Positions 1 to 40,925 of a DNA stretch of 40,925 bases are shown piece after piece; the stretch's first letter is position 1; each line of letters opens with the position of its first letter. Origin of the DNA: a virus (Duplodnaviria > Heunggongvirae > Uroviricota > Caudoviricetes); IMG/VR virus record IMGVR_UViG_2585427787_000014; one strand, written 5' to 3'. Under the pieces are notes generated by a model that saw only the letters and a program-made list of their open reading frames with translations, did no database searches and had not been told where the DNA came from. The position numbers and the translations under genes were made by a program.

Positions 1-516
1 ATGAAATTTAAAAAATGTCTTCTGCCTGTGGCAATGTTAGCGTCATTCACTCTGGCAGGATGCCAGTCAAATGCTGACGATCATGCTGCCGATGTTTATC
101 AAACCGATCAACTGAATACCAAACAAGAAACTAAAACCGTTAATATTATTTCCATTCTTCCCGCAAAAGTTGCCGTAGACAACTCCCAAAATAAACGGAA
201 CGCACAAGCCTTCGGCGCGCTTATTGGCGCAGTCGCTGGCGGTGTTATCGGCCACAACGTCGGGTCTGGCAGCAATTCCGGAACGACGGCAGGTGCAGTT
301 GGCGGCGGAGCTGTAGGCGCGGCAGCGGGTTCTATGGTGAATGATAAAACCTTAGTGGAAGGTGTTTCTTTAACCTATAAGGAAGGCACCAAAGTGTATA
401 CCTCTACCCAGGTGGGTAAAGAGTGCCAGTTTACGACAGGTTTAGCCGTTGTTATTACCACGACGTATAACGAAACGCGTATTCAGCCAAATACCAAATG
501 TCCTGAAAAGAGCTAA
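1..516 (+). CDS. lipoprotein with Gly/Ala-rich glycine-zipper segment; probably a host gene flanking the prophage
   Basis: 171-aa ORF; signal peptide ending in lipobox LAGC; GxxxG-rich stretch (AVAGGVIGHNVG...AVGGGAVGAAAG). Confidence 0.6.
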   Translation: MKFKKCLLPVAMLASFTLAGCQSNADDHAADVYQTDQLNTKQETKTVNIISILPAKVAVDNSQNKRNAQAFGALIGAVAGGVIGHNVGSGSNSGTTAGAVGGGAVGAAAGSMVNDKTLVEGVSLTYKEGTKVYTSTQVGKECQFTTGLAVVITTTYNETRIQPNTKCPEKS

Positions 517-531
517 TAATCAGGAGGAGTC

Positions 532-1071
532 ATGAAGAAAGTTTTTCTTTGCGCCATCTTAGCCTCCTTAAGCTATCCGGCTATCGCCTCATCATTGCAG
601 GATCAACTCTCTGCTGTCGCAGAAGCGGAACAGCAAGGTAAAAATGAAGAGCAAAGGCAGCATGACGAATGGGTCGCGGAGCGCAACAGGGAAATCCAGC
701 AAGAGAAGCAACGTCGCGCAAATGCCCAGGCCGCCGCTAACAAAAGAGCGGCAACGGCAGCGGCAAATAAGAAAGCTCGTCAGGATAAACTGGACGCCGA
801 AGCCTCTGCGGACAAAAAACGCGATCAAAGTTATGAAGATGAGCTACGCAGCTTAGAGATTCAGAAACAAAAACTGGCGCTGGCGAAAGAAGAAGCCCGT
901 GTTAAGCGAGAAAACGAATTTATCGATCAGGAACTGAAGCACAAAGCTGCGCAAACCGATGTGGTGCAATCTGAAGCTGACGCCAACAGAAATATGACTG
1001 AAGGCGGTCGCGATCTGATGAAAAGCGTGGGCAAAGCAGAAGAGAACAAATCGGACAGCTGGTTTAATTAA
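532..1071 (+). CDS. secreted, highly charged (K/E/Q/A-rich) coiled-coil protein; probably host
   Basis: 179-aa ORF with N-terminal signal peptide; AGGAGG Shine-Dalgarno upstream of ATG; followed by a strong terminator. Confidence 0.55.
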   Translation: MKKVFLCAILASLSYPAIASSLQDQLSAVAEAEQQGKNEEQRQHDEWVAERNREIQQEKQRRANAQAAANKRAATAAANKKARQDKLDAEASADKKRDQSYEDELRSLEIQKQKLALAKEEARVKRENEFIDQELKHKAAQTDVVQSEADANRNMTEGGRDLMKSVGKAEENKSDSWFN

Positions 1072-1115
1072 TCGATGTTAGTAACTTCAATCCTATAATT
1101 CTTGAAGATAAAAAA

Positions 1116-1142
1116 CCCTCTGTAGTAACAGAGGGTTTTGTT
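1116..1142 (+). terminator. rho-independent terminator after gene 532-1071
   Basis: Stem CCCTCTGT / ACAGAGGG with loop AGTA, followed by TTTTGTT. Confidence 0.6.
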
Positions 1143-1288
1143 CATTCATAGTGCAGGGTCAAATCATTCCCACTCGATTATTTGCGATACACATAACCAA
1201 TTGAGTGATAACAACTTTCCCATAACTGATTTTCACCGTACCGTTTTATATACCGTCACCGGAAATCAGTACCATGAAAAATGCCATG

Positions 1289-1774
1289 TCACCTGGTCAG
1301 CGAATCGTACTGCTTTTCACAGACTCGTCCGGCTTCGGCGGCCCGATCAGCGTACTCTGCCAGTTGTCGGTTTCGCTCGAGAGATTTGCTGAGCACGTCG
1401 GCAAGCAAAACTCCGGTGTCTGCGGCTGACGCCCCAGAGCCGACAGTGGCGTTATACTGCCTGAGCTGCTCACGGATGGCAACGAGCTGTTGCTGCAACC
1501 TGCCAGCGCGAGCGGCAGCATCAAGAGCATCATTGCGCGCCTGGTCGATAGCACGCTGTGCTTCACGTTCATTTGTCGCTTTCTCCTGTTCGTCATGCAG
1601 ACGCGCTTTCTCATCTTCGGCTTTTCGATCTGCCTTTGCCTGTGCATACCCGGCGTCGTACTGACGGTTGCCGTGTATATTCCAGGCAACAACGCCACTG
1701 ACCACCAGCGCAGCAAGCATCACGACAATAAGCAACTGTTTCCAGTATGTTTTTAATAATACCGAGATCATAAA
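1289..1774 (-). CDS. Rz-like i-spanin (inner-membrane spanin)
   Basis: Start taken at the internal Met (MISVLLKTYWKQLLIVVMLAALVV...) of track ORF 1289-1903. N-terminal TM helix then a charged coiled-coil region; lies immediately downstream of the endolysin with a 7-nt overlap. Confidence 0.6.
   Translation of the reverse strand, partial: FMISVLLKTYWKQLLIVVMLAALVVSGVVAWNIHGNRQYDAGYAQAKADRKAEDEKARLHDEQEKATNEREAQRAIDQARNDALDAAARAGRLQQQLVAIREQLRQYNATVGSGASAADTGVLLADVLSKSLERNRQLAEYADRAAEAGRVCEKQYDSLTR
1297..1572 (-). CDS. Rz1-like o-spanin lipoprotein embedded in Rz in another frame
   Basis: Inside track ORF 1297-1716: signal peptide plus lipobox (MNVKHSVLSTRRAMMLLMLPLALAGC) followed by a Ser/Pro-rich short mature part. 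Start is either Met at 1572 or 1533. Confidence 0.4.
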   Translation of the reverse strand: MNVKHSVLSTRRAMMLLMLPLALAGCSNSSLPSVSSSGSITPLSALGRQPQTPEFCLPTCSANLSSETDNWQSTLIGPPKPDESVKSSTIR

Positions 1775-2394
1775 AGCACCTTGCTGGCAGTGATGTACCG
1801 CGCGCGCCGGTCGTCGATGCCGTTCTGACCGCCATTGATGATCTGCGTGACGCGCACCAGGTCGCCGGTGTACTTCATGCAGCCTTTGGTGGCGAAGAAC
1901 CATGCAGCGCTGCGGGCCGCGTATTCGTCCTGCGCCAGCAGCTCAGGCTGAGAAACCAGATCAACCTTCAGGCCGTTACCGCAGTCACGATAGTTATCCA
2001 GGAATGTTATCCCGATAAGGCCACGCGCCCGGTATTTCCATCCATCACCCGGAGCGTTGTTACCGTAGCGCTTGCTGTACACCAGGTTGGCGATTGCGCG
2101 CTGGCGCTCCAGTGGCAATGCCTTCTCATAGGTCTTCCTGCCAAGCGCGCTGGCCTGGTCAGGAGTAATGCGCCCGGCGCGGATAAAGCCAGCCAGACCG
2201 GCAATGCTGTAGTTGAAATTCTCAATCAGCCTGGTGAATCCGGTGCTTTCATGCCCTGCCTGGGCAATGAACATTGCCTGATGCTGTGGATCAATAATGC
2301 CGAACTCTTTCATCGCTGCGGTGATATGCGGATACCAGCGCACAGCCAGTTGCTCAGTTATACCGGCAGCGCGCCGGAACTGGTTAATGTCCAT
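1768..2394 (-). CDS. endolysin, glycoside hydrolase family 19 (chitinase-like lysozyme)
   Basis: 208-aa ORF; translation resembles GH19-type phage endolysins as I recall them (FIAQAGHESTGF..., GRGLIGITFLDNY...); sits between the holin-like genes and Rz. Confidence 0.75.
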   Translation of the reverse strand: MDINQFRRAAGITEQLAVRWYPHITAAMKEFGIIDPQHQAMFIAQAGHESTGFTRLIENFNYSIAGLAGFIRAGRITPDQASALGRKTYEKALPLERQRAIANLVYSKRYGNNAPGDGWKYRARGLIGITFLDNYRDCGNGLKVDLVSQPELLAQDEYAARSAAWFFATKGCMKYTGDLVRVTQIINGGQNGIDDRRARYITASKVLL

Positions 2395-2692
2395 GTTGAG
2401 ACCTCGATATTTTGAATATCTGCACGACGTTACCGCGCGTCTTCAGAACGGCGGCAAGCATGACAGCATTGATGATGACCTCCGATAAATCGGCGGACAT
2501 TGGTGTGTGATACCAGATTGCGTATGCAGCGCGGACAGGAATGCTGGCGGCGGCAACAATGAGAAAGTAAGCGATCCACCCTCCCCATCTGCGATGTTGA
2601 GACCCATTACGCCTGAATGTGCCGACGCGGATTGCTATACCTGAACAGATAACCGCATTGGCAATAAGCAAAAGCAACTCATGAGTTGTCAT
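2384..2692 (-). CDS. lysis-cassette membrane protein (second holin/antiholin-like component)
   Basis: 102-aa ORF with about three hydrophobic helices; overlaps the holin-like gene upstream and the endolysin downstream. Confidence 0.45.
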   Translation of the reverse strand: MTTHELLLLIANAVICSGIAIRVGTFRRNGSQHRRWGGWIAYFLIVAAASIPVRAAYAIWYHTPMSADLSEVIINAVMLAAVLKTRGNVVQIFKISRSQHGH

Positions 2693-3092
2693 CGTCTTTT
2701 CTCCCCGGGATTAACTCGCGTGGATTATCGGAACGGTGATAGAGCCAGATGCCAATACGGACTGCGACTATTGCTGACACGAAAGCGCCAGCGGAGTACG
2801 CAACCCCTTTCTCAAACATATCTGTGGTGATGCCAGGGAAAGAGGATGCAAAGCCGATGAGGAATGTTGCTGTGGGTTTGTAGAAGAGAAGGCCACAGAG
2901 GAAACTGAGCATCGACAAGAGAACCCGGCGCCGTATCGGATACTCAACTGCTGAGGTAACAAAAATTACCGCACCAGCCAGAGCACCTAGCGCCACCTCT
3001 GGCGGAACTCCTGCGATTACCGCAGCAAGCGACCCCATGCTAAGCCACTGATTTAAAGACTCACTGGTTAGCCCGGCTGACATAATGACCAC
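2679..3092 (-). CDS. holin-like membrane protein
   Basis: 137-aa ORF with multiple TM helices and a charged C-terminal tail (RSDNPRELIPGRKDDDNS); first gene of the lysis cassette. Confidence 0.5.
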   Translation of the reverse strand: MVIMSAGLTSESLNQWLSMGSLAAVIAGVPPEVALGALAGAVIFVTSAVEYPIRRRVLLSMLSFLCGLLFYKPTATFLIGFASSFPGITTDMFEKGVAYSAGAFVSAIVAVRIGIWLYHRSDNPRELIPGRKDDDNS

Positions 3093-3187
3093 CGTTTACT
3101 GTGCATGAAGAACCCCCTTAGTTGGTGAGTCCATCATACACAATAAACCATATATGGTTAAAATTAGTTAAGAATGCTCTTATCAAA

Positions 3188-3204
3188 GTTACCCATCAGG
3201 TAAT
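3188..3204. promoter_or_regulatory. 17-bp palindrome copy (GTTACC-CATCA-GGTAAT) upstream of the lysis cassette
   Basis: Read directly from the sequence; between the tailspike stop (3211) and the holin start (3092). Confidence 0.5.
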
Positions 3205-3210
3205 TTATAA

Positions 3211-4665
3211 TTATTGCAAATATCCTTTTTTGTTTTTTAGCATTCTCGTTAACGCCTCTGTCCATGAAGCCATGATACTGATTTGCCCCTCAACTGTAGG
3301 ATGGATGTTGTCACCATACCATCCTATGTTTGCTCCAAAGTTTCTGCGCATATCAGCAAATTCATAGCCATTTTGTATGCAGAACTTTTTCAGCGCATGA
3401 GTATATTTTGCATGCGCGGCATAGTTAGCAGTAGTTACACCGTGAATACCACTATGCTCCTTAGTAGTAAAAATTGGGAAAATGCCAAAAACAGGGATAG
3501 CACCTGCGGCAACTATTTTATTTGCTATAGTCTGAACGTTTGTTACATACTGAGCTACAGCGGTACCACCTTGCTGGTCGTTAGTTCCTATCATACAAAG
3601 TACAACATCATGAGGTGAGTAATCTGTTGTTGAGCCTTCACCGGAAGACCAATAGGATGAACTGGTACCACTTACAGCATAATTTGTAATTGATACCTTA
3701 CCTACGTTGTCTGAGTTCTGTATAAAAGATGGTAATAGTTTTGTTATATCGTTGCTGCACCATGCGCCATAGCTAATTGAGTCTCCTATTACCCCAATAT
3801 TCAACGGACGCTTAACTCTCACTTTATAGTTTGACGTTTTAAGACAATCCAAAAAAATAACACCTTTGGCATCGCCACTACCCAACAAAATGAATCCTGC
3901 GTTAGCTACGGCTCCATTGAATCTATAAACTGGAAAGCCGTTAATAATAAATGTCATTACTGAATCATTAACAACAAATCCAAGATTAACCTGCTGATTA
4001 CTAACCCATCCATACGCACCACCGTTAGGGAGGGTGTAGGACTCATTTATTGTTTGAGTTCCATAAAAATTAAATCCTTTAACCATTAAGGTTGCACTTG
4101 ACACTGTTACATATGCTAATATAACCTCGTTTGAGGTTTTTATAAATACACCACATGATTCAGACATTCCACTTGTAAACACATTGATCTCATAAAGAGA
4201 ACCATTCTCAAGTGATGTTGGGTATAGAACCTGTGGGTTCGCTGAGAAATCAGATGACCACGTCACAGTGCTTGATGTTACAATTCCTGTTCCTGAGATG
4301 CTAATGTCTCCTGTTGAAACATTATAGACTTTCTGATTCCAGCTCGTCAGATCCACAACAGAAGATAACTCATTTAGTGACATGTTAACTAAACCAGGAG
4401 CAACATTATACAACTCCTTCAAGTCAACGAATGTATTTGCAGGTTTAACTAAAGTTGTTCCACTTACAGGATTTTTAATTCTTAAATTTGTTAATAATAA
4501 CAAATCTTTTGTATTTGGATTTTCATCAATATTAAATGTTATACCATCATCAGCATGAATTTTCAATCCTGATAAATCAGGCCGACCGCCAGAAAAAAAA
4601 AACGGTACCAGCCCCGTCAAAGTATAATGTTTCTCCAATTTCTGAAAGATAACTACGGGCAGCAT
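3211..4665 (-). CDS. tailspike C-terminal part with SGNH/GDSL esterase domain (downstream frame of a split tailspike)
   Basis: 484-aa ORF. C-terminal SGNH hydrolase blocks: GDS (IGVIGDSISYG), GxND (CMIGTNDQQGG), DxxH (GDNIHPT). Overlaps upstream ORF 4577-5788 across a T10 run. AT-rich. Confidence 0.65.
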   Translation of the reverse strand: MLPVVIFQKLEKHYTLTGLVPFFFSGGRPDLSGLKIHADDGITFNIDENPNTKDLLLLTNLRIKNPVSGTTLVKPANTFVDLKELYNVAPGLVNMSLNELSSVVDLTSWNQKVYNVSTGDISISGTGIVTSSTVTWSSDFSANPQVLYPTSLENGSLYEINVFTSGMSESCGVFIKTSNEVILAYVTVSSATLMVKGFNFYGTQTINESYTLPNGGAYGWVSNQQVNLGFVVNDSVMTFIINGFPVYRFNGAVANAGFILLGSGDAKGVIFLDCLKTSNYKVRVKRPLNIGVIGDSISYGAWCSNDITKLLPSFIQNSDNVGKVSITNYAVSGTSSSYWSSGEGSTTDYSPHDVVLCMIGTNDQQGGTAVAQYVTNVQTIANKIVAAGAIPVFGIFPIFTTKEHSGIHGVTTANYAAHAKYTHALKKFCIQNGYEFADMRRNFGANIGWYGDNIHPTVEGQISIMASWTEALTRMLKNKKGYLQ

Positions 4666-5788
4666 TATATTGAGTGAAAGAATCTGTTACCCCATCATAC
4701 TTAATACCCCACTGCCTCGCCCTTGTCGGATATAAGGACTCTACATACATGCCACCTGCAATAGAAAATATATGCCCTCCATCATCAGTAGCGGATCCAC
4801 TGCGGATTACTCCAATATTTCCACCTCCATCATTCTTTGAGTAATAACCAGACCATTCAACCATCATTCCATTGTACGATGAGTCAAAAACAACATGGTG
4901 GGCATTAGATAACACGCCAGACCTTAGATCTGCTACTGTAGAGAAAGTCAGTTTTACAACATTATTGTCGAGGTAATTCTCAAGCGTTCCGAAGTACTTA
5001 TCGCCAATAAATGACGCCCCGTTACTGGACGCAAGATCAGACCTTAAGCTGGCATCGCCAACACTAAGCCACTTACCACTTCCTATCCCCCCTGTGCTCT
5101 CAGGTGTAGAGTCGGTGGGGACTACTTTTGGTAGTGTTCCATCCCACCTGAACCATTCGCCTGAGCTTTCCTGGAGAAGAACGTCGTTAGGATAGTTGAT
5201 GGTATTACCCAGCTCAAAAGACCTCTTCGTGTTATAGCCATACAGTCCATTCTTCAATGTATCAATGATAGTTGCCAATAGGTTACTCAAATCACGATAA
5301 AGATCATCAATATATTTTTTTGTAGCTGCATCTTGTGGCATAGACGGATCACGGAGGTTTCTTATATAGAATCCCAGCGCATCATAGAAACTGGCAATGC
5401 TGCTTGGTCTTTTTAGTGCCAATCTGTTATCACTAAAAGCCTGCTGAATTAGCATCGTCAGTTTATCAAAAGCATCTTCATGTACTTCTGCGAAGAACTT
5501 ACCCTGATTTCTGAGATCTGTTTCCTGGGTAACTGGCAACTCTCTGGATATCGAAATCTGATAACCATTAGCAAGAGGAGCAGACAAAACAACATTTCCT
5601 CCAGTGTATCCACCAGCGCCAGTTACCGTATAACCGGTATCCAGAACCAATTCTGTTACGTTCCCGTTCAGGTCAGACACCTGAACAACCAGGTCGGATT
5701 TTTTGAAAATACGGAAGGTATACGGAAATGATGTCGTAACGCCGTTACCTGTGTATTCGTTGTGGTCAACTTCGGTTGAGACCGTCAT
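4577..5788 (-). CDS. tailspike N-terminal (virion-attachment) part (upstream frame)
   Basis: 403-aa ORF ending five codons after the T10 run. N-terminus (MTVSTEVDHNEYTGNGVTTSFPYTFRIFKK...) matches my recollection of conserved tailspike head-binding domains of epsilon15/phiV10-like podoviruses. Confidence 0.65.
   Translation of the reverse strand: MTVSTEVDHNEYTGNGVTTSFPYTFRIFKKSDLVVQVSDLNGNVTELVLDTGYTVTGAGGYTGGNVVLSAPLANGYQISISRELPVTQETDLRNQGKFFAEVHEDAFDKLTMLIQQAFSDNRLALKRPSSIASFYDALGFYIRNLRDPSMPQDAATKKYIDDLYRDLSNLLATIIDTLKNGLYGYNTKRSFELGNTINYPNDVLLQESSGEWFRWDGTLPKVVPTDSTPESTGGIGSGKWLSVGDASLRSDLASSNGASFIGDKYFGTLENYLDNNVVKLTFSTVADLRSGVLSNAHHVVFDSSYNGMMVEWSGYYSKNDGGGNIGVIRSGSATDDGGHIFSIAGGMYVESLYPTRARQWGIKYDGVTDSFTQYNAARSYLSEIGETLYFDGAGTVFFFWRSA
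4593..4602. repeat. A10/T10 homopolymer at the junction of the two tailspike reading frames
   Basis: Ten consecutive A on the plus strand; both tailspike ORFs read through it (VFFF in the upstream frame, PFFF in the downstream frame). Confidence 0.9.
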
Positions 5789-5842
5789 GTTAAATCTCCA
5801 GATAGTCGCAGCACCCGTTGCGCCGCATATCTGGTTATTCTA

Positions 5843-5864
5843 TTACCCAAAAAACCACATATGG
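5843..5864. promoter_or_regulatory. conserved element TATTACC(C)AAwwwAACCACATATGr (copy B), upstream of tailspike
   Basis: Near-identical to 24884-24907; a partial match at 32062-32080. Confidence 0.4.
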
Positions 5865-5891
5865 ATAGAAAGACTGTAAATACGAATAGAT

Positions 5892-5908
5892 ATTACCTTT
5901 CGGGTAAT
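5892..5908. promoter_or_regulatory. 17-bp palindrome copy (ATTACC-TTTCG-GGTAAT)
   Basis: Perfect inverted repeat; in the divergent region between the tailspike start (5788) and gene 5985-6242. Confidence 0.55.
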
Positions 5909-5944
5909 TTGCAAAACGTGCTGGATAGCAAACAAATTATTTGA

Positions 5945-5964
5945 TACTGTATAAATATACAGTT
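5945..5964. promoter_or_regulatory. LexA (SOS) box
   Basis: TACTGTATAAATATACAGTT fits CTGT-N8-ACAG with an AT-rich spacer; ends 6 bp before the first ATG (5970) and 21 bp before the SD-preceded ATG (5985). Confidence 0.7.
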
Positions 5965-5984
5965 ATTGCATGGAGAAGATTAAG

Positions 5985-6242
5985 ATGCAGCAGTATCACT
6001 ATCCACTGGAAGACGGATTTACCGAAAGGATTCACACGCCGGGAGGCGTCAGGTCACTGGTGGAAGGATCGCACTTGATGAAATTACTCCGGGATCTCGA
6101 TAAGGATGGATTTAATGTCGATGGCCCACTTGCCGAACTGACTGCACTGATTAACTACGTCACCAGCTCACAGATGTCTATGCGGGATCTGCAAACACAT
6201 CTCGACTATTGTGCCGAACAATTACGAAAACAAACCAGATAA
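5985..6242 (+). CDS. small antirepressor-like protein; standalone homologue of the C-terminal domain of the Bro-N protein at 6558-7268
   Basis: GGAG Shine-Dalgarno 9 nt before ATG 5985 (alternative ATG at 5970). About 45% identity by eye over ~80 aa to the C-terminus of the 6558-7268 product (LMKLLRDLDKDGFNVDGPLAELT...RDLQTHLDY vs LMNLLNQLQDDGHDVSGAAAELT...RDIQTHAEY). Confidence 0.6.
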   Translation: MQQYHYPLEDGFTERIHTPGGVRSLVEGSHLMKLLRDLDKDGFNVDGPLAELTALINYVTSSQMSMRDLQTHLDYCAEQLRKQTR

Positions 6243-6272
6243 GGTTTGCAATTACCAAGTGGAGTGCTTATA

Positions 6273-6289
6273 TTTACCTTTGCGGTAAA
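6273..6289. promoter_or_regulatory. 17-bp palindrome copy (TTTACC-TTTGC-GGTAAA)
   Basis: Embedded in a longer imperfect inverted repeat (GGAGTGCT...AGCACTCC) just downstream of gene 5985-6242. Confidence 0.5.
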
Positions 6290-6379
6290 TTTACATAGCA
6301 CTCCTCTTGTGCCATAGTAATCGGGCACTGGCAAAATCCAGTGCCGGGATTGGCGTCCCGAGTTACTAAGTGGCGCATA

Positions 6380-6401
6380 CCACGCCAGACGTGGTTTTTT
6401 T
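6380..6401 (+). terminator. rho-independent terminator
   Basis: Stem CCACG / CGTGG with loop CCAGA, followed by T7. Confidence 0.55.
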
Positions 6402-6557
6402 ATGCGTTAAGCACAGCTATATCCGAATTATGGTGGGCTGGGCAGGGGTCCGAAAGGACGCCGGTACCACTTAGGCCGGTACGCCAACCTTGTCCAGTTC
6501 ACCACCAGTAATTGGCGTTGCGGTGGTGATTAAAATCACTAAGTGGAGATAACCACC

Positions 6558-7268
6558 ATGGCTAATGCTCAAACTGCCATCTTCAAATTTGAATCTGTTA
6601 ACCCTATCCGTTCCATCATTATCGATGGCCAACCATGGTTTGTAGCCCAAGACGTTTGTAGTGCGCTGCGTATCCAAAACGTCACCCAAGCACTTGAAAA
6701 ACTGGATGATGATGAAAGGTCTATGTTCAACATAGGGCATGAACATCGTGCAATTTTTGACAGCCGAGTAAAAGAGATCAACATCATCTCCGAGTCAGGC
6801 CTCTACACACTGATCCTCCGCTGCCGCGACGCAGTGACACCAGGCACTATCCCATACCGCTTTCGTAAATGGGTTACAGGTGAGGTTCTTCCTCAGATCC
6901 GCCGCACCGGAAGTTACATTAAAAACTCGCTCCCGCAGGAAGAGCGCATAAAGATGGTTGCCGACCAGGTAGCCAACGCCACAGCATCAGCAGTGATGCA
7001 GGCGATGAAGATAGAGAACAAAACCTACAGTGCCCCACTGAAGCCCGGCTACCGCAGCCTGATTCATTCGCCGTCTGGTGTTCTCGGCCTGACGGAGAAC
7101 TCACTGCTGATGAATCTGCTGAACCAGTTACAGGACGACGGGCACGACGTATCGGGCGCGGCGGCGGAGCTGACCACCATGTTCTGCTACATCGTCGGTG
7201 TGAGCAAATGCCTGCGTGATATCCAGACGCACGCGGAGTACATCAACGACAAGGCAGGGTTCTTCTGA
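6558..7268 (+). CDS. Bro-N domain antirepressor-like protein
   Basis: GGAG 9 nt before ATG 6558 (track ORF begins at GTG 6543). N-terminus (AIFKFESVNPIRSIIIDGQPWFVAQDVCSALRI...) has Bro-N/antirepressor character; C-terminal ~80 aa paralogous to the 5985-6242 product. Confidence 0.6.
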   Translation: MANAQTAIFKFESVNPIRSIIIDGQPWFVAQDVCSALRIQNVTQALEKLDDDERSMFNIGHEHRAIFDSRVKEINIISESGLYTLILRCRDAVTPGTIPYRFRKWVTGEVLPQIRRTGSYIKNSLPQEERIKMVADQVANATASAVMQAMKIENKTYSAPLKPGYRSLIHSPSGVLGLTENSLLMNLLNQLQDDGHDVSGAAAELTTMFCYIVGVSKCLRDIQTHAEYINDKAGFF

Positions 7269-11373: not shown

Positions 11374-13176
11374 TTACCCTCTCAAGAAACACGCCACAGC
11401 GACATCAAACAGGCTGGAATCCTGTATTGCCTGCTCACTTTCCCTGTTCGCTTCATCCAGTACTTCACGCGCGCTGCGCGATTGTGGATTACCATCATCA
11501 TCCAGCACGGTGATTATCATGTCCGGAGATTCAAGCAGCGAGTCTTCAGCTATACGCAGATCAATATCTCCTGCCGGATCTGCCATCATTTTTTGTTCTG
11601 TCTGTTGCAATATCTTACCGGGCTCAAAAGGAGCTACTTCGTCTGGCGTCCTGACCTCTGCTGTTTTATAGAATGAAACAGCCTGAGCATTAAGTTCACT
11701 TTCTGCCTGCTGTCGCCGTGCCAGTTCTGCTCGAGCTTCAAAAAACTGACCGCCAGGCTCATGCGGTGCCAACGCGTTACGGGAAAATTCCAGGCGTTCT
11801 TGTGCCTGCCGGATTCGTTGGTCAATATCGCGCAGTCTGGCCTGTTTATCTGATCGAGCACGAGATAAAGCCTTACCGCTACCGGTTGGCTCTTCTGCAA
11901 GAATTTGTGCGCGCTGTTCAGTGAGATTTTCAATAATTCGTTGGCTATTAGCGATTTCAGACTGGTAAACCTGTCTATCGCCACGCGGCAAAAGCTGCGC
12001 GGCCTGTTCTTCAAGCAACCGATTTTCTATAGCGCGCGCCGTTACTCCATCATCTACAGATGACAGAGCCTCATTAACTGCCTGAGACAGCAGACTCTTG
12101 CGCCCAGGAATTTCACTGAAAGATGCAGACTCAACAATGCTGGCAACGTCTACAGGCCTCCCCTGGCTAACATCAGACATGGCTTTTCGCAGAGCCTGAA
12201 TGTGCGAATTACGCGAAAGCACGTTGATCGGAACGCCGGGCGCAATATCAATTTCAGCATGATGAGCGGCATTCGCCGCCAGTGCAGCATCGATATCAAC
12301 TGGTGAAAAATTTGGTGCGTTTGTAGACTCGCCGCGAGAGTTAATAAATCTGCCGACACCACCAAACGCCACCCCAAGAACAGCATCAATAGCAATTGCC
12401 TGTCGATCCAACACATCATACTGGTTAGCCATTTCGCTATAGCCACCATCACGAAGCGTTTTTGCAGTAAGCCCACGCTGTGCCATACCGAACGCAATAT
12501 TTGTACCTGCGGCATAGGCAATATCTGGCGTTGCACGTACTGCTGTTGCTGCGGCGCGTCGCACTGAACTCTCACCCGTCCGCGCAAGCTGAGCCGCCAC
12601 ACCTTCCGCCAGCGCACCACCAGCACGTAACCCGAGGCTCATAGGGATCAGTGTTCCGGCACCAGCAGTAATGCCCTGCACTAATCCCGCTTCCTGCGCC
12701 GTCCTGAAATCAACACCCTGTGCTGTCAGCCGTTCAAACTCAGAAAAACCCTGTAGCGAAGTTACCGCCGCTGCACCTCCGACAGGACCTCCGAGCGTTG
12801 TACCGACAACAGCCTGCCCGCCCATATCGAACAACCCATAAAGAACCTGCCCGGCGGTTCCGGTTGTCGCGGCATCAGGCGTCAGCCGCTTAACCTGCTG
12901 CTCTGCTAGTTTTCTCTGCTCAGCAATGTATGAAACTGAAGTGTCATTGAGCGAGGTGTTTTCGTTAACAAACTGAGCAATCGGGGATACGATTTTATCC
13001 ATCCCTGCCCATAGCAACTGATCTGGCTTTGCCACCAGCCCGGAGTACAAACCAGACAATGCCGCTCCTACAGCATTGTCGAAAAAACCAACATCGCTGT
13101 TAAAGCCAGCTGGATTTGATGCTGCTTCGTCAAGCTGCTGATTCTGGTTTACTGGATTAAGGCCAAAGTAACTCAT
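11374..13176 (-). CDS. internal virion/ejection protein, Gly/Ala-rich
   Basis: 600-aa ORF; ATGA-type overlap with the upstream gene; low-complexity G/A-rich central region. Confidence 0.6.
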   Translation of the reverse strand: MSYFGLNPVNQNQQLDEAASNPAGFNSDVGFFDNAVGAALSGLYSGLVAKPDQLLWAGMDKIVSPIAQFVNENTSLNDTSVSYIAEQRKLAEQQVKRLTPDAATTGTAGQVLYGLFDMGGQAVVGTTLGGPVGGAAAVTSLQGFSEFERLTAQGVDFRTAQEAGLVQGITAGAGTLIPMSLGLRAGGALAEGVAAQLARTGESSVRRAAATAVRATPDIAYAAGTNIAFGMAQRGLTAKTLRDGGYSEMANQYDVLDRQAIAIDAVLGVAFGGVGRFINSRGESTNAPNFSPVDIDAALAANAAHHAEIDIAPGVPINVLSRNSHIQALRKAMSDVSQGRPVDVASIVESASFSEIPGRKSLLSQAVNEALSSVDDGVTARAIENRLLEEQAAQLLPRGDRQVYQSEIANSQRIIENLTEQRAQILAEEPTGSGKALSRARSDKQARLRDIDQRIRQAQERLEFSRNALAPHEPGGQFFEARAELARRQQAESELNAQAVSFYKTAEVRTPDEVAPFEPGKILQQTEQKMMADPAGDIDLRIAEDSLLESPDMIITVLDDDGNPQSRSAREVLDEANRESEQAIQDSSLFDVAVACFLRG

Positions 13177-25609: not shown

Positions 25610-26500
25610 ATGCTTGACTTCATCCGTGACATTTACTCCTCTTTCCGCCAAGCATCTCTTGAGCGGGTGAAAAGCCCGTTCCTTGGGGCATTTGTTTTTT
25701 CCTGGCTTTGCTTTAATTGGCAGATGTTAGCAATTCTATTTTTTAGTTCTAAGGATATTGAAAAGCGCCTTGCTATTATTAATGGCTCTTTCGGCATCGT
25801 CAGCTTTTTAATTGCGCCAATATGCACTACAGCATTGATAGTTATCCTTTTACCGCAAATTAATAAATTGATTACAATAATACAAGATAAACCTAACTCA
25901 GACACAATTGAAATGAGCCTTGCATCTAAAATAAAGATCGCCGAACTGCAGCAACTATTAGCAGAAAATGAAGCAAGAAAGAAACTTGCTGATAAAAAAG
26001 AAGAACGCTTCATTGAAGAGAATATTATTTCAATAAAAAAAGACCATGAAAAAGCAATAGATAACCTTAAAGACAAAGAAAGTAAAATCTCAAATCTCAC
26101 GGACACAATAACTGAACTTCAGAGCAAACTGGTTAAAGCTGAGGCCACTCTCAAAGTTGAACAGGAGTCAAGATCCCAAGTGCAGAATGAATTGATTATT
26201 GAAAAAGAGAACAAGCGGAAATTAGAAGACAACATTCTGCACCTTAATTTAAGTTTAAAAAAAAACCAATCAGAATTGGCCATTGCAAAAGAAGCCTATG
26301 ATAATACCTTGATGGCTTATAATGAACTTAACACAACATTAAAAAAAGCAGAAAGCTCAATAATAAACTTCAATGCTAACTTTCCTTTTTTAACTGACAT
26401 AAATAACAGCACCCCAAATACATACTTAAAAATAAATAAAAATGCATGGGAGCATTTAGTTAGTTTAAATTTAAGTCTAAAGGAGAAAATACAAAAATAA
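25610..26500 (+). CDS. AT-rich accessory gene: membrane-anchored coiled-coil protein of unknown function (candidate exclusion/defence gene)
   Basis: 296-aa ORF on the strand opposite the structural genes, inserted between terminase and portal. Two N-terminal hydrophobic helices, then a long K/E/L/N-rich heptad-like region. AT content visibly much higher than surrounding phage genes. Confidence 0.6.
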   Translation: MLDFIRDIYSSFRQASLERVKSPFLGAFVFSWLCFNWQMLAILFFSSKDIEKRLAIINGSFGIVSFLIAPICTTALIVILLPQINKLITIIQDKPNSDTIEMSLASKIKIAELQQLLAENEARKKLADKKEERFIEENIISIKKDHEKAIDNLKDKESKISNLTDTITELQSKLVKAEATLKVEQESRSQVQNELIIEKENKRKLEDNILHLNLSLKKNQSELAIAKEAYDNTLMAYNELNTTLKKAESSIINFNANFPFLTDINNSTPNTYLKINKNAWEHLVSLNLSLKEKIQK

Positions 26501-38067: not shown

Positions 38068-38367
38068 GTGAGAAAGTTAAGCCGACTTGAAAAATATCAC
38101 ATGAACAAGGTTTCAATGCGCAGCCCTTCAAAGGTTGTTGCCGTTACTCCTGCGGCGATAGAGATCGAAAAACGCGCGATTGAAAGAGAGAAAAAAGGGC
38201 AGTTCCGCATTGCCGCCCACCTTTGGCTTCAGTGTATGGATGTTGCTTCTGGTGATGTTGAGCGTGCAAGGATCGCGGTTCGCAGGGACCAATGTATCAC
38301 AAAAGGTAACGGCCTTCGCCGTGGCGACTATAGCGGCATAGGATGTTGTGGGGTGGTTTATGACTAA
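38068..38367 (+). CDS. hypothetical small regulatory-type protein
   Basis: 99-aa ORF, GTG start with GAGGG upstream (alternative ATG at 38101). Confidence 0.4.
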   Translation: MRKLSRLEKYHMNKVSMRSPSKVVAVTPAAIEIEKRAIEREKKGQFRIAAHLWLQCMDVASGDVERARIAVRRDQCITKGNGLRRGDYSGIGCCGVVYD

Positions 38368-39010
38368 GAAATACACACTAATCTATGCAGATCCACCCTG
38401 GGTATACCGGGACAAAGCCGCAGATGGTAATCGCGGTGCCGGTTTTAAATATCCGGTTATGAGTGTGCTGGATATCTGCCGCCTTCCTGTGTGGGATTTG
38501 GCCGATGAAAACTGTCTGTTGGCCATGTGGTGGGTGCCAACACAACCACTCGAAGCGCTAAAAGTTGTTGAAGCCTGGGGATTCCGTCTGATGACCATGA
38601 AGGGCTTCACGTGGATAAAATGTGGTAGTCGACAACCAGATAAACTGGTTATGGGTATGGGACACATGACTCGCGCCAATAGTGAAGATTGCCTGTTTGC
38701 AGTAAAGGGAAAACTACATCCGCGCATTAATGCAGGGATCGTTCAGTCATTTACCGCACCGCGGCTTGAGCATTCAAGAAAACCAGATGTCGTTCGTGAA
38801 AAACTTGTGCAATTGTTAGGCGATGTTTCTCGCATTGAACTGTTCGCCCGCCAGTCGTCTCATGGCTTCGATGTTTGGGGTAATCAGTGCGAAGACCCGG
38901 CAGTGCAACTAACTCCTGGATACGCGTTGGATATTGCCAGATTAACAAATGCATTCAGCAATGCTCCGCTGTCACCAACAGACAACCAGGGGCGGGAGCG
39001 TGCAGCATGA
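38360..39010 (+). CDS. MT-A70 family DNA N6-adenine methyltransferase
   Basis: DPPW catalytic motif near the N-terminus ([12 protein letters not shown]); start MTKKYT preceded by GGGGTGG (track start 38348). Confidence 0.7.
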
Positions 39011-39666
39011 ACCTATATCAACGCATCAATGGCGCTGACTGGTGCAATATCTTCGTCGTCGGCGATCTGCATGGGTGCTACACGCTGCTGATGAACGAAC
39101 TCGACAAAGTTTCATTCGACCCGGCGCGCGATTTGCTTATTTCCGTTGGTGACCTTGTTGACCGCGGCGCTGAAAACGTCGAATGCCTGGATTTGATTAC
39201 TATGCCTTGGTTCCGAGCTGTTCGTGGCAACCATGAGCAGATGATGCTGGATGCACTGGTCAACGGCGGAAGTTTCGGACATTGGATGTCAAACGGCGGT
39301 GGATGGTGGCACCAACTTGATTCTGAGCAGGATGTGCAACTCAAATACCTTCTGCCAAAGGTTACCAACCTCCCGATGATTATCGAACTGGTTACCGGCA
39401 ATAAGAAGGTCGTCATCTGCCACGCAGACTACCCGCACAACGAATACGCATTCGATAAGCCAGTACCGGAAGAAATGGTGATATGGAATCGTGAGCGGGT
39501 TAGCGACGCGCAGGACGGTATTGTCTCGGAGATAACCGGTGCCGATTTGTTCATCTTCGGTCATACGCCAGCACATCACCCACTGGTGTATGCAAACCAA
39601 ATGTACATCGACACCGGCGCAGTGTTCTGCGGAAATCTGACGCTTACCAAAGTCCAGGAAGGATAG
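39007..39666 (+). CDS. Ser/Thr protein phosphatase (metallophosphoesterase, lambda NinI-like)
   Basis: Start MNLYQRI overlapping the methylase stop (ATGA); metallophosphatase motifs GDLHG, GDLVDRG, GNHE. Confidence 0.75.
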
Positions 39667-39668
39667 AA

Positions 39669-40925
39669 TTATTTATTACTGTCTTCCATCCACTTCTCAA
39701 ACTTCGACGGGGAGAACGGAATCAGATCCGTATGCTCCCCGTCAATCCAAGAATCAATCATATCGGCCCACTGCTGCAACATGTAGGCGCGCTGTCTGGC
39801 GTATTCCGCTTTGTTATATACGGCGCGCACACCTTTCTGCTCATGTGCCAGAGCCTTTTCAATCCAGTCTGAAGGATAACCAGCCTCATGCAACAACGTA
39901 CTGGCTGTACGGCGCATATCGTGTACGGTAAAATCCTGAATATGCTCACCATCTTCATTTATTATTTTCACCGTTCTGTCGATCAGAGAGTTCAGCGCGG
40001 CATTAGATAATGGCTTCCGGAAATTGTAACGACCAGGAACCAGATATTCACTTCCACCAGCGCACATCTGCAACCCGACCAATATATCCTGTGCCTGTTT
40101 AGGCAGGTAAATAACGTGCGCCCGGCTTCCCTTCATGCGGTCTGGAGGAATTGTCCATGTCCATTTTTTAAAATCTATTTCATCCCACGTTGCATTGGTG
40201 AATTCGCCTTTACGAACCATAGTGATAAGCACCAACTTTAAAGCCATTTTCATAGTACCCATAGCACCAATGGCATCCAGCGTGCGGAAGAACAGGCCAA
40301 TTTCTTCTGGTGTCAGTGTTCGCTCTCGTGGTTTAAATATGGCGATAGACGAAGGTTTAATGTCAGCCGCAGGATTAAACAAACCATGACCACGGTCATT
40401 GGCGTGACGGTATACGCTGCTGATGATCTCCCTGGCCTGTACTGCTGTTGCACGGCCACCGCGTTCGACAATCCGGTCACACAAATCACGAACCATCGAT
40501 GTGGTAATTTCAGTCATCATTTTGTTGCCAAGAACCGGAAGTATGTCACGGTCGATCACCGCCTGCTTCATTGCGCGGGTACTGTCAGCCAGGATGACGT
40601 GTTTCATATAACTGTCGGTATGTACCGCAAACGTCTCGGCACCACGAATCTTTTTGATACCGTCACGTTTAGCCGCAGCCGGTGACTGGCCTGCTTTAAG
40701 CAGCTTCTTTGCAGCAATCAGTTCTTCTCGCGCTTCTGCCAGGCTGATACCGTCACGCCCATACTGCCCGATTACCAGCGTTTCGCGGCGACCGTTGATA
40801 CGGTAGTCGTAGCGAAACGAGACCGTGCCTGACGTAAGAACAGCTACATACAGCCCGTCACGATCGGAGACCTTGTACAGTTTGTCCTGCGGCTTGAGGT
40901 TTTTTAATTTTGTATCGGTAAGCAC
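39669..40925 (-). CDS. int: tyrosine integrase, P4-like (N-terminal arm-binding domain); 5' end at or just beyond the window edge
   Basis: 418-aa ORF reaching the window end; N-terminus (LTDTKLKNLKPQDKLYKVSDRDGLYVAV) typical of P4-type integrases; C-terminal catalytic R...HxxR...Y pattern (HDMRRTA...Y). Confidence 0.8.
   Translation of the reverse strand: MLTDTKLKNLKPQDKLYKVSDRDGLYVAVLTSGTVSFRYDYRINGRRETLVIGQYGRDGISLAEAREELIAAKKLLKAGQSPAAAKRDGIKKIRGAETFAVHTDSYMKHVILADSTRAMKQAVIDRDILPVLGNKMMTEITTSMVRDLCDRIVERGGRATAVQAREIISSVYRHANDRGHGLFNPAADIKPSSIAIFKPRERTLTPEEIGLFFRTLDAIGAMGTMKMALKLVLITMVRKGEFTNATWDEIDFKKWTWTIPPDRMKGSRAHVIYLPKQAQDILVGLQMCAGGSEYLVPGRYNFRKPLSNAALNSLIDRTVKIINEDGEHIQDFTVHDMRRTASTLLHEAGYPSDWIEKALAHEQKGVRAVYNKAEYARQRAYMLQQWADMIDSWIDGEHTDLIPFSPSKFEKWMEDSNK

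What the first reader, a model, noticed from the sequence alone, without database searches (positions are those of the whole stretch)
3211..5788. Tailspike reading frame broken exactly at a T10 homopolymer; esterase domain at the C-terminus
ORFs 4577-5788 (N-terminal virion-binding part) and 3211-4665 (C-terminal part) overlap by 89 nt, and both frames pass through the same ten-T run (plus-strand A10 at 4593-4602). The upstream frame stops five codons after the run. A 1-nt length change there would fuse them into a single tailspike of roughly 860 aa. This is either a sequencing/assembly indel, a pseudogene, or slipped-strand phase variation of receptor specificity. The C-terminus carries SGNH/GDSL esterase blocks, suggesting an O-antigen deacetylase-type receptor-modifying activity.
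Basis: partly seen in the sequence, partly recalled or inferred. Interest (0 to 1): 0.7.

Follow-up and report, generated by a model that had tools for sequence, protein, structure and literature searches.

The report
Prophage tailspike gene frameshifted at poly-T
The only tailspike gene of an otherwise intact phiV10-like E. coli prophage is split in two by one extra T in a run of nine Ts, a slippage-prone spot that also varies in other isolates, so this is an ordinary and probably reversible knock-out, not a new kind of gene arrangement.

Summary
Two minus-strand ORFs (4577-5788, 403 aa; 3211-4665, 484 aa) overlap by 89 nt across a T10 run (4593-4602). Removing one T gives an 858-aa protein. 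That protein is collinear with intact 858-aa tailspikes and identical, bar one residue, to one found on about 59 E. coli contigs.

The window is 100% identical to E. coli 6-319-05_S4_C2 (JORH01000153.1) and is a Uetakevirus (phiV10-like) prophage. No other gene in it looks broken.

The in-frame state of this allele is T9. T9 arose from T7-C-T by a synonymous TTC>TTT change; sister lineages keep T7CTCT or have no run. Assemblies of this allele carry T8 (1 contig), T9 (about 59) and T10 (2, one an independent metagenome scaffold). Every shorter homopolymer in the window has the same length in all relatives.

The C-terminus is a genuine SGNH/GDSL esterase domain with all four catalytic blocks. 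Its substrate is untested.

Best reading (0.55): a real +1 slippage mutation at an accidental hot spot. It switches the tailspike off, can revert, and is probably leaky through RNA-polymerase slippage.

Main rival (0.3): a homopolymer consensus error.

An evolved phase-variation switch is unlikely (about 0.1), because the tract is not conserved and the off state removes the only tailspike found in the window.

The parts
3211..5788 (-). The whole tailspike gene (858 aa when the run is T9). Here it is split into two ORFs.
   Evidence: The T9 reconstruction is collinear with P0001 (858 aa, 94% identity, 100% coverage). It equals L007/P0121 except for L615F. It lies between the Bro-N/antirepressor region and the holin-endolysin genes, as in relatives.
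4593..4602 (-). T10 homopolymer (A10 on the plus strand). This is the site of the +1 frameshift; the in-frame state is T9.
   Evidence: The near-identical L007/L131 has T9. L009 has T10. A T8 product exists in the protein collection. Sister lineages read GTT TTT TTC TCT.
4577..5788 (-). Upstream ORF of 403 aa: N-terminal 398 residues of the tailspike plus 5 out-of-frame residues (FWRSA). Annotated by NCBI as KEM34872.1.
4577..4579 (-). Premature TGA stop reached in the shifted frame.
5306..5788 (-). Conserved virion-anchor domain (about residues 1-165), the only part conserved at DNA level among Uetakevirus tailspikes.
   Evidence: Megablast to phiV10, HEMP4, phiv142-3, TL-2011b and others covers only this part. 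PDB Dpo31 tailspike N-terminus, E 2e-26. PHROG tail families. tblastn of the phiv142-3 tail fibre matches residues 1-165.
5054..5236 (-). PF18668 Tail_spike_N (TSP1/gp66-type) module, residues 185-245.
   Evidence: Pfam E 2.7e-21. Matches the same module in CBA120 tailspike structures and in 4QNL.
3211..4592 (-). Tailspike residues 399-858 (central body plus esterase), now in the +1 frame behind the run. The mechanical ORF extends up to 4665; NCBI annotates 469 aa as KEM34871.1.
   Evidence: There is no ATG with a well-placed Shine-Dalgarno sequence. The only GGAG lies 12 nt before the TTG start that NCBI uses (read).
3283..3792 (-). SGNH/GDSL esterase domain. Catalytic blocks: GDS (S670, 3772-3786), SG (G707, 3661-3675), GTND (N736, 3574-3588), DNIH (D826/H829, 3298-3312).
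   Evidence: PF13472 E 2.6e-19. The blocks are conserved in the alignment and located. AF2 model of the last 219 aa has pLDDT 77. Foldseek finds TesA, Axe2 and sialate O-acetylesterases at E about 1e-8.
3851..3857 (-). Second T-run (T7) in the gene. Another isolate is broken here by +1 T (T8), giving products of 649 and 220 aa.
   Evidence: The P0125 C-terminus GVIFFGLS* and the P0127 N-terminus MPKVLFFLDC fit only a T8 at this run. The run is T7 in 5 of 5 relatives held here.
3934..3934 (-). Missense change private to this assembly, TTG>TTT (L615F), at a residue that is L in every relative.

Best explanation
The region is one gene: the tailspike (the only one found) of a phiV10-like (Uetakevirus) prophage in E. 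coli 6-319-05_S4_C2. From N- to C-terminus it has a virion anchor, a PF18668 module, a central body of unresolved fold and a C-terminal SGNH esterase.

In this lineage a synonymous TTC>TTT change merged T7-C-T into a T9 run. Runs of that length slip during DNA replication. Here one extra T (T10) shifts the frame after residue 398 and stops translation five codons later.

The expected result is a 403-aa stub that can still dock on the virion but lacks the receptor-binding and esterase part. Induced particles should therefore be largely non-adsorbing, so the allele is 'off'.

The lesion is not a designed two-gene layout and not an evolved switch. It is a by-product of an accidental hot spot in a gene that is not under selection while the phage is lysogenic.

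Two routes should keep it from being a dead end:
- Back-slippage to T9 during replication.
- Loss of one U by host RNA polymerase on the A10 template, which would yield some mRNA encoding the exact wild-type 858-aa protein.

Shown here:
- The gene identity.
- The origin of T9 and its status as the in-frame allele.
- The natural T8/T9/T10 polymorphism.
- The absence of any other visibly broken gene in the prophage.
- The SGNH domain.

Inferred, not shown:
- That T10 is real in this strain's DNA.
- Non-infectivity of the particles.
- Reversion to T9.
- Transcriptional leakiness.
- The esterase substrate.
For: **One gene, T9 in frame**
- Deleting one T gives 858 aa, collinear with P0001 and P0002 (858 aa) across the junction GTVFFSGGRPDL.
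- IMG/VR contig L007/L131 is 99.97% identical to the window over 10.8 kb and has T9 with an intact ORF.
- That exact protein (P0121) is on about 59 contigs.

**Origin of the tract**
- L001-L003 and L132 read GTT TTT TTC TCT.
- L004-L006 and L133 read GTC GTA CTT TAT TCA.

**Hot spot**
- T10 is also in an independent metagenome scaffold, L009. L009 keeps the ancestral L615 and differs from the window in the flanking cassette.
- The predicted T8 product is in the collection.
- A second run in the same gene, T7, is T8 in another isolate, whose two split products are each on record from both NCBI and Logan.
- Wherever relatives share the flanks, the other runs of 7 or more A/T or 6 or more G/C have an invariant length, for example 40/40 and 35/35.

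**Rest of the prophage intact**
- Every phiv142-3 protein that has a homologue in the window aligns in one piece, except the truncated phiv142-3 methyltransferase fragment, whose window counterpart is an intact 220-aa ORF.
- The integrase is 418 aa.

**Leakiness is plausible**
- E. coli RNA polymerase restores +1 reporters by deletion at about 10% on T8, and more with longer T runs (PMC6260861).
- Nine A/T is the length at which selection against slippage-prone runs becomes evident in many of the bacterial genomes analysed (PMC1088944).
- An A11 run rescues tssM1 in Citrobacter (PMC4256274).
- An A9 repeat in phage T2 agt shows about 7e-4 mutants and fast reversion (10.1101/2025.10.21.683753).
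Against: - No reads were available, so T10 could be a consensus error. Runs of 9-10 are where short-read indel errors begin to rise (my own knowledge).
- Only one isolate and one metagenome scaffold carry T10.
- The window has two further private substitutions within 10.8 kb. That could mean a lower-quality consensus rather than decay.
- Reversion, slippage rescue and non-infectivity are inferred from other systems. None was measured on this sequence.
- Lambda N antitermination reduces deletion slippage. Whether late transcription in this phage behaves likewise is unknown.
Confidence: 0.55

Rival explanations
1. Sequencing or assembly artefact. The strain really carries T9 and an intact tailspike, and the extra T was introduced when the consensus was called over a long homopolymer.
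For: - The nearest relative differs at this tract by exactly one T.
- T9 is the overwhelming majority allele, on about 59 contigs.
- The off variants are singletons spread over T8 and T10, as length-dependent error would produce.
- The window also carries two substitutions found in no relative.
- The 403-aa product is not listed from Logan, the independent re-assembly of public reads.
Against: - T10 recurs in an unrelated sample assembled independently.
- No other homopolymer in the window differs in length from any relative. Systematic homopolymer error is therefore not evident, although no other run is as long.
- A comparable +1 T at the T7 run of another isolate has its two split products on record from both NCBI and Logan.
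Confidence: 0.3
2. An evolved contingency locus or programmed slippage site. The run is maintained because reversible on/off switching, or a fixed ratio of truncated to full-length tailspike made by RNA-polymerase slippage, benefits the phage or the lysogen.
For: - The natural polymorphism T8/T9/T10 toggles the frame.
- The run length is in the range used by known transcriptional-slippage genes.
- There is precedent for homopolymer switching in phage receptor-binding genes: Fletchervirus polyG tracts and the T2/T4 contingency loci.
- L009 and the window share T10 and an otherwise identical phage segment, yet differ in the adjacent cassette.
Against: - The tract is not conserved. It is a recent synonymous accident of one sub-lineage; sister lineages have T7CTCT or no run.
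- About 95% of copies are in frame.
- The off state removes the only tailspike found in the window, which gives the virion no obvious benefit.
- Simple repeats are reported to be depleted in coliphage tail-fibre genes.
- No stimulatory RNA structure is present: the local fold has z = -0.01.
Confidence: 0.1
3. Two separately translated, functional proteins: an N-terminal adaptor stub and a free or non-covalently attached esterase subunit.
For: - NCBI annotates two CDSs (KEM34872.1 and KEM34871.1).
- The same two-ORF layout occurs in L009.
- Multi-subunit tailspike/adaptor systems exist in other phages (my own knowledge).
Against: - The downstream frame has no ATG with a usable Shine-Dalgarno sequence. 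The first ATG (4665) has none, and the TTG that NCBI uses lies 12 nt after a GGAG (read).
- All close homologues are single polypeptides running through the junction.
- The C-terminal piece would lack the virion anchor.
Confidence: 0.03

Closest known systems
Tailspikes of Uetakevirus phages (phiV10, epsilon15, TL-2011b, phiv142-3, HEMP4)
   Same: - The genome backbone is 96-97% identical over most of the virion and replication genes.
- The gene position is the same.
- The N-terminal anchor is the same, 82-86% identical at DNA level over about the first 350 nt of the gene and its upstream region.
   Different: Beyond about residue 165 the sequence is unrelated to the tailspikes of these phages. 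The body found no match in GenBank phages by tblastn and none in complete E. coli genomes by megablast. It ends in an SGNH esterase, whereas the tailspikes of related phage and prophage records are annotated as beta-helix glycanase or 'eliminase' types.
Esterase (deacetylase) tailspikes, e.g. phage G7C gp63.1 (to my recollection PDB 4QNL) and the Vi-capsule acetyl-esterase tailspikes
   Same: - A virion-borne SGNH esterase is fused to a tailspike scaffold.
- It shares the PF18668-type N-terminal module with 4QNL (E 4e-8).
- The expected action is removal of O-acetyl groups from a surface polysaccharide receptor.
   Different: - The esterase domains are not detectably similar in sequence.
- 4QNL is not among the top 50 fold matches, which are TesA, Axe2 and sialate esterases.
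- The phage family is different and temperate.
- Substrate and activity are untested here.
- That G7C gp63.1 and the Vi phages are deacetylases is from my own knowledge.
Homopolymer 'contingency loci' in phage genes: polyG tracts in Fletchervirus receptor-binding proteins, and A-runs in T2 agt and T4 rIIA
   Same: A mononucleotide run inside a phage gene gains or loses one base, toggling the reading frame. Variants coexist in nature.
   Different: - Here the tract is a poly-T that arose recently and is absent from sister lineages.
- The on state dominates at about 95%.
- The off state abolishes the sole tailspike rather than choosing among alternatives.
- No within-population heterogeneity has been measured.
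Transcriptional-slippage rescue of interrupted genes (Citrobacter rodentium tssM1 A11, Shigella spa13/mxiE, Thermus dnaX A9, IS elements)
   Same: An A/T run of 9 or more sits just upstream of a premature stop, and RNA-polymerase slippage can restore the long product.
   Different: In those systems the out-of-frame arrangement is the conserved wild type, and both products or their ratio matter. Here the out-of-frame allele is a rare variant of an in-frame gene, and any rescue would be incidental. It needs loss of one U, which E. coli polymerase performs on T runs.

Membership tests
SGNH/GDSL hydrolase superfamily | Profile match above the curated threshold | tested here: met
   PF13472, E 2.6e-19, 70.8 bits against a cut-off of 32.9. 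PF00657, 39.4 bits against 23.6.
SGNH/GDSL hydrolase superfamily | Four conserved blocks carrying Ser, Gly, Asn and His (GDS, G, GxND, DxxH) | tested here: met
   GDS (S670), SG (G707), GTND (N736) and DNIH (D826/H829) are present. G, GxND and DxxH are invariant or nearly so in 21 homologues, and GDSI is the alignment consensus.
SGNH/GDSL hydrolase superfamily | Three-layer alpha/beta/alpha flavodoxin-like fold | tested here: met
   AF2 model of the last 219 aa has pLDDT 77 and pTM 0.80. Foldseek PDB hits are TesA, EstA, Axe2 and sialate O-acetylesterase, at E 1e-8 to 1e-7 and probability 1.00.
SGNH/GDSL hydrolase superfamily | Esterase activity on an acetylated substrate | not testable with these tools
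   Needs an enzyme assay on host LPS or capsule.
Uetakevirus-type tailspike | Homologous N-terminal virion-anchor domain | tested here: met
   82-86% DNA identity to phiV10, HEMP4 and phiv142-3 over the 5' end. PHROG tail families at E down to 1e-112. tblastn of the phiv142-3 tail fibre matches residues 1-165.
Uetakevirus-type tailspike | Conserved genomic position, upstream of the holin-endolysin cassette and after the large virion proteins and the antirepressor region | tested here: met
   Gene maps of L001-L005 and L008. Collinearity with phiv142-3.
Uetakevirus-type tailspike | Trimeric receptor-binding body | tested here: inconclusive
   The full-length AF2 model is poor (mean pLDDT 47; residues 227-373 and 451-659 below 50). 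No multimer prediction was possible.
O-antigen/capsule deacetylase tailspikes (G7C gp63.1 type) | Tailspike scaffold carrying an SGNH domain | tested here: met
   Anchor, PF18668 and PF13472 occur in one 858-aa polypeptide in the intact alleles.
O-antigen/capsule deacetylase tailspikes (G7C gp63.1 type) | Homology of the esterase domain to a characterised deacetylase tailspike | tested here: not met
   The match to 4QNL is confined to the N-terminal module. The esterase domain has no significant PDB sequence hit, and 4QNL is not in the top 50 fold hits.
O-antigen/capsule deacetylase tailspikes (G7C gp63.1 type) | Deacetylation of the host receptor polysaccharide | not testable with these tools
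   Needs biochemistry.
Contingency (phase-variable) locus | Simple-sequence repeat inside the coding region whose length sets the reading frame | tested here: met
   A T9 (in frame) or T10 (out of frame) run at 4593-4602.
Contingency (phase-variable) locus | Natural length polymorphism among otherwise near-identical copies | tested here: met
   T8 on 1 contig, T9 on about 59, T10 on 2. Whether these are real alleles or errors is not resolved.
Contingency (phase-variable) locus | Repeat conserved and maintained across related lineages | tested here: not met
   Sister lineages have T7CTCT or no run at the homologous codons.
Contingency (phase-variable) locus | High-frequency reversible switching within a population, with a selectable phenotype | not testable with these tools
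   Needs read-level data and phage genetics.
Programmed transcriptional slippage gene | A/T run of about 9 or more in the sense strand, next to a stop in the zero frame | tested here: met
   T10 is followed by a TGA five codons later. Thresholds are from PMC1088944 and PMC6260861.
Programmed transcriptional slippage gene | The out-of-frame arrangement is the conserved state among homologues | tested here: not met
   The great majority of copies are a single in-frame ORF.

The most novel reading that the evidence does not exclude
The T9/T10 tract works as a genuine on/off or dimmer switch for the sole tailspike of a temperate coliphage. Lysogens carry T10 'silent' prophages that still release a small, slippage-rescued fraction of infectious particles, or revert at high frequency. 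The same T10 prophage segment would then sit beside two different flanking cassettes (window and L009) because T10 phages still transmit.
Probability: 0.1. Interest if true: 0.6.

Novelty: new member of a known kind. Interest (0 to 1): 0.25.

Why it matters
Mostly this matters as a caution for annotation. KEM34872.1 and KEM34871.1 are two halves of one tailspike and should be treated as a frameshifted gene. Predicting host range from prophage tailspikes would misread such split entries.

The locus is a clean natural example of how one synonymous change can create a mutational hot spot in an essential phage gene. If the T10 allele is real, this strain also offers a simple test bed. A single-tailspike temperate phage would let one measure how far replication slippage and RNA-polymerase slippage rescue a frameshift. 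That bears on the recent claim that phages use contingency loci.

The esterase tailspike family itself is common in E. coli prophages but absent from the complete genomes and GenBank phages searched here. It is a candidate receptor-modifying enzyme worth assaying.

Tried and rejected
**Searches that found nothing useful**
- The body of the gene found no match in GenBank phages by tblastn and none in complete E. coli genomes by megablast. No annotated complete-genome comparison exists for it. One earlier call failed on frame.
- A JGI metagenome scan for the tract's upstream flank gave 0 hits.
- I tried to fetch the rest of the near-identical IMG/VR contig with a 30-mer from window position 19300. 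The pattern is conserved in more than 120 related prophages and the target was not in the 80 rows shown, so I dropped this.
Their DNA and sequencing origin could not be inspected.
- No paper in the library mentions strain 6-319-05. Wagner et al. 1990 is not held.

**Structure and homology attempts that were uninformative**
- The full-length AlphaFold model was too poor to use (pLDDT 47). No statement is made about the fold of residues 250-650 or about where the break falls in the structure.
- phmmer of the esterase domain against PDB returned only spurious antibody light chains and a weak TesA hit. It was replaced by the fold search.

**Ideas considered and rejected**
- A terminator-like hairpin plus T-run at 4618-4601 folds no better than shuffled sequence (z = -0.01). 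I rejected it as a signal.
- Programmed +1 ribosomal frameshifting was considered. Re-pairing of tRNA-Phe on the U run would give the exact wild-type protein, but there is no slow or stop codon in the A site and no stimulator. It is rated minor, by inference only.
- IMG/VR contig L169 has the same length as the window (40,925 bases) but is a different phage.
Full report
**1. The observation**

On the minus strand, ORF 4577-5788 encodes 403 aa and ORF 3211-4665 encodes 484 aa. They overlap by 89 nt. Both pass through a run of ten Ts (plus-strand A10 at 4593-4602), the longest homopolymer in the window.

The upstream frame reads GTT TTT TTT TTC TGG CGG TCG GCC TGA. The downstream frame is +1 relative to it. 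Removing one T gives an uninterrupted 858-aa ORF, and adding two gives 859 aa.

A T10 by itself is not remarkable: 15 of 100 shuffles of the window contain one. The significance comes from the frame break falling exactly on it.

**2. Where the window comes from**

The window is 100% identical to contig JORH01000153.1 of E. coli 6-319-05_S4_C2 (GCA_000713095.1). NCBI annotates the two halves as KEM34872.1 (403 aa) and KEM34871.1 (469 aa, SGNH/GDSL hydrolase).

It is a prophage of the phiV10/epsilon15 type (genus Uetakevirus). It is 96-97% identical to HEMP4, phiv142-3, phiV10 and related phages over most of 24 kb.

The prophage looks intact apart from the tailspike.
- Every phiv142-3 protein with a homologue in the window aligns in a single piece, with one exception.
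- The exception is the truncated phiv142-3 methyltransferase fragment. Its window counterpart is an intact 220-aa ORF.
- The integrase is 418 aa.

**3. It is one gene**

The T9 reconstruction is collinear with intact tailspikes:
- P0001: 858 aa, 94% identity, 100% coverage.
- P0002: 858 aa, 88% identity.
- P0003: 830 aa.

All three read straight through the junction as ...GAGTVFFSGGRPDLSG... or ...GAGVVLYSGARPDLSG....

The domain layout is as follows.
- **Residues 1 to about 165, virion anchor.** This is the only stretch conserved at DNA level with other Uetakevirus tailspikes. It matches the N-terminus of a solved tailspike (Dpo31, E 2e-26).
- **Residues 185-245, PF18668 Tail_spike_N module**.
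- **Central part.** I could not model it. The full-length AlphaFold model has pLDDT 47.
- **Residues about 660-850, SGNH/GDSL esterase.**
  - PF13472, E 2.6e-19.
  - Blocks GDS (S670), SG (G707), GTND (N736) and DNIH (D826/H829) are all present. All but the GDS block are invariant or nearly invariant in 21 homologues, where GDSI is the consensus.
  - The domain model has pLDDT 77. Its best fold matches are TesA, acetyl-xylan esterase Axe2 and sialate O-acetylesterases.

The esterase claim is therefore sound at the domain level. 'O-antigen deacetylase' remains an inference by analogy.

**4. History of the tract**

The closest relative is IMG/VR contig UViG_2585427795_000001 (L007/L131). It is 99.97% identical over 10.8 kb and has T9 with an intact 858-aa ORF.

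Sister lineages read ACC GTT TTT TTC TCT GGC, that is T7-C-T-C-T (L001-L003, L132). Others read GTC GTA CTT TAT TCA, with no run (L004-L006, L133).

T9 therefore arose by a synonymous TTC>TTT change that fused T7 with the T of the next codon. T10 is T9 plus one.

**5. Population survey**

By exact-sequence look-up:

| Tract | Product | Found on |
|---|---|---|
| T7 | 402 aa | not found |
| T8 | 407 aa, ...TVFFLAVGLIYQD | one Logan contig |
| T9 | 858 aa (P0121) | about 59 contigs |
| T10 | 403 aa | the source contig, plus independent metagenome scaffold L009 (ENA ERZ28649484) |
| T11 | 408 aa | not found |
| T12 | 859 aa | not found |

L009 has T10 but keeps the ancestral Leu615. Apart from that base it is identical to the window across 1161-6731. 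It differs at 13 positions plus a 2-nt indel in the adjacent 87-1160 cassette.

A further isolate is split at the second T-run of the gene (T7 at 3851-3857) by the same kind of +1 T. Its products (649 and 220 aa) are each on record from both NCBI and Logan.

In contrast, the window's other runs of 7 or more A/T or 6 or more G/C have the same length in every relative that shares the flanks, for example 40/40 and 35/35. Length variation is specific to the longest tract. Both true hypermutability and length-dependent sequencing error predict that pattern.

**6. Real or artefact**

I cannot see reads.

In favour of a real allele:
- T10 recurs in an independent sample.
- There are no homopolymer discrepancies elsewhere in the window.
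- The comparable T7>T8 case has its split products on record from two sources, NCBI and Logan.

In favour of an artefact:
- T9 dominates and the off variants are singletons.
- The window carries two more substitutions seen in no relative: 3934, L615F in the tailspike, and 11377, L>V in the penultimate codon of a 600-aa virion protein.

Those two substitutions could equally be decay after inactivation. All three private changes alter virion proteins.

I put a real allele at roughly two to one over an artefact.

**7. Consequence and mechanism**

With T10 the product is a 403-aa stub that keeps the anchor but lacks the body and the esterase.

The downstream frame has no ATG with a usable Shine-Dalgarno sequence. 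The TTG chosen by NCBI lies 12 nt after a GGAG (read), so independent expression is unlikely. As no second tailspike gene was found in the window, particles should be essentially unable to adsorb.

Two escape routes are supported by the literature.
- **Back-slippage during replication.** An A9 repeat in T2 agt shows about 7e-4 mutants per population and about 1000-fold faster reversion than a point mutant (10.1101/2025.10.21.683753).
- **RNA-polymerase slippage.**
  - E. coli polymerase prefers poly-T and restores +1 reporters by deletion at about 10% on T8, rising with length (PMC6260861).
  - Nine A/T is the length at which selection against such runs becomes evident in many bacterial genomes (PMC1088944).
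  - An A11 run rescues tssM1 in Citrobacter (PMC4256274).
  - Shigella spa13 slips at 25-30% (PMC5009743).

Loss of one U would give mRNA encoding exactly the wild-type protein. These steps are inferred, not shown. The local RNA fold is unremarkable.

**8. Is it an evolved switch?**

Probably not.
- The tract is a recent accident absent from sister lineages.
- About 95% of copies are in frame.
- The off state removes the sole tailspike rather than selecting an alternative specificity.
- Simple repeats are reported to be depleted in coliphage tail-fibre genes.

The one hint the other way is that the window and L009 share T10 on an identical phage segment next to a divergent flanking cassette. 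That could mean either recurrent mutation or transmission of a T10 phage.

**9. Comparison and novelty**

The gene belongs to two known kinds: Uetakevirus tailspikes, by its anchor and position, and esterase-bearing tailspikes, by its SGNH domain. Its esterase domain is not demonstrably homologous to that of a characterised deacetylase tailspike.

The frameshift belongs to the known class of homopolymer slippage lesions. It fails the conservation criterion both for a contingency locus and for programmed transcriptional slippage.

**Verdict.** The feature is real and correctly described. It is ordinary in kind and of low to moderate interest. It is useful mainly as an annotation correction and as a convenient test case for slippage rescue.

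Noticed in passing
window 3934 and 11377: Besides the extra T, the window has two substitutions found in no relative. Position 3934 is TTG>TTT, giving L615F at a conserved tailspike residue (5/5 relatives have L). Position 11377 is TTA>GTA, giving L>V in the penultimate codon of a 600-aa virion protein, inside the Shine-Dalgarno region of the next gene (16/16 relatives have the other base). All three private changes in 10.8 kb alter virion proteins. This could be decay after inactivation or a weaker consensus.
   Followed up: partly
window 3851-3857 (minus-strand T7): A second T-run in the same gene is T8 in another E. coli isolate (END6492596.1 and END6492595.1). It splits the tailspike into 649 and 220 aa, and both products are on record from NCBI and from Logan.
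   Followed up: partly
L006 5173-6234: A related esterase tailspike with a different N-terminus (P0004, 708 aa) is followed immediately by an Acyl_transf_3 gene on the opposite strand. This pairs a putative deacetylating tailspike with a putative O-acyltransferase in one prophage. The window has no such gene between the tailspike and the holin.
   Followed up: no
window 87-1160: The cassette next to the lysis genes (a DUF5384 protein and a TraT-like lipoprotein) differs from scaffold L009 by 13 SNPs and a 2-nt indel, whereas the next 5.5 kb are identical bar one base. The cassette is absent from L003 and from phage phiv142-3, and the IMG/VR contig L007 ends exactly at its edge (window 1162). 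It is probably an exchangeable moron or a separate element.
   Followed up: partly
window 38348-39010 and 39669-40925; L010 37299-39086: The free phage phiv142-3 has a truncated 92-aa 'adenine methylase' and a split integrase (294 and 122 aa). The window has an intact 220-aa methyltransferase and an intact 418-aa integrase. For these genes the prophage is the better-preserved copy.
   Followed up: partly
window 38887-39666: A 259-aa ORF overlaps the 3' end of the methyltransferase ORF by about 120 nt in another frame. It was not characterised.
   Followed up: no
window 26257-26265: An A9 run, the second-longest homopolymer, lies in the region between the small virion gene and the terminase genes, where phiv142-3 has its tRNA-Arg. 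Only one relative shares its flanks, and it has the same length. It would serve as an internal control for read-level homopolymer error.
   Followed up: partly
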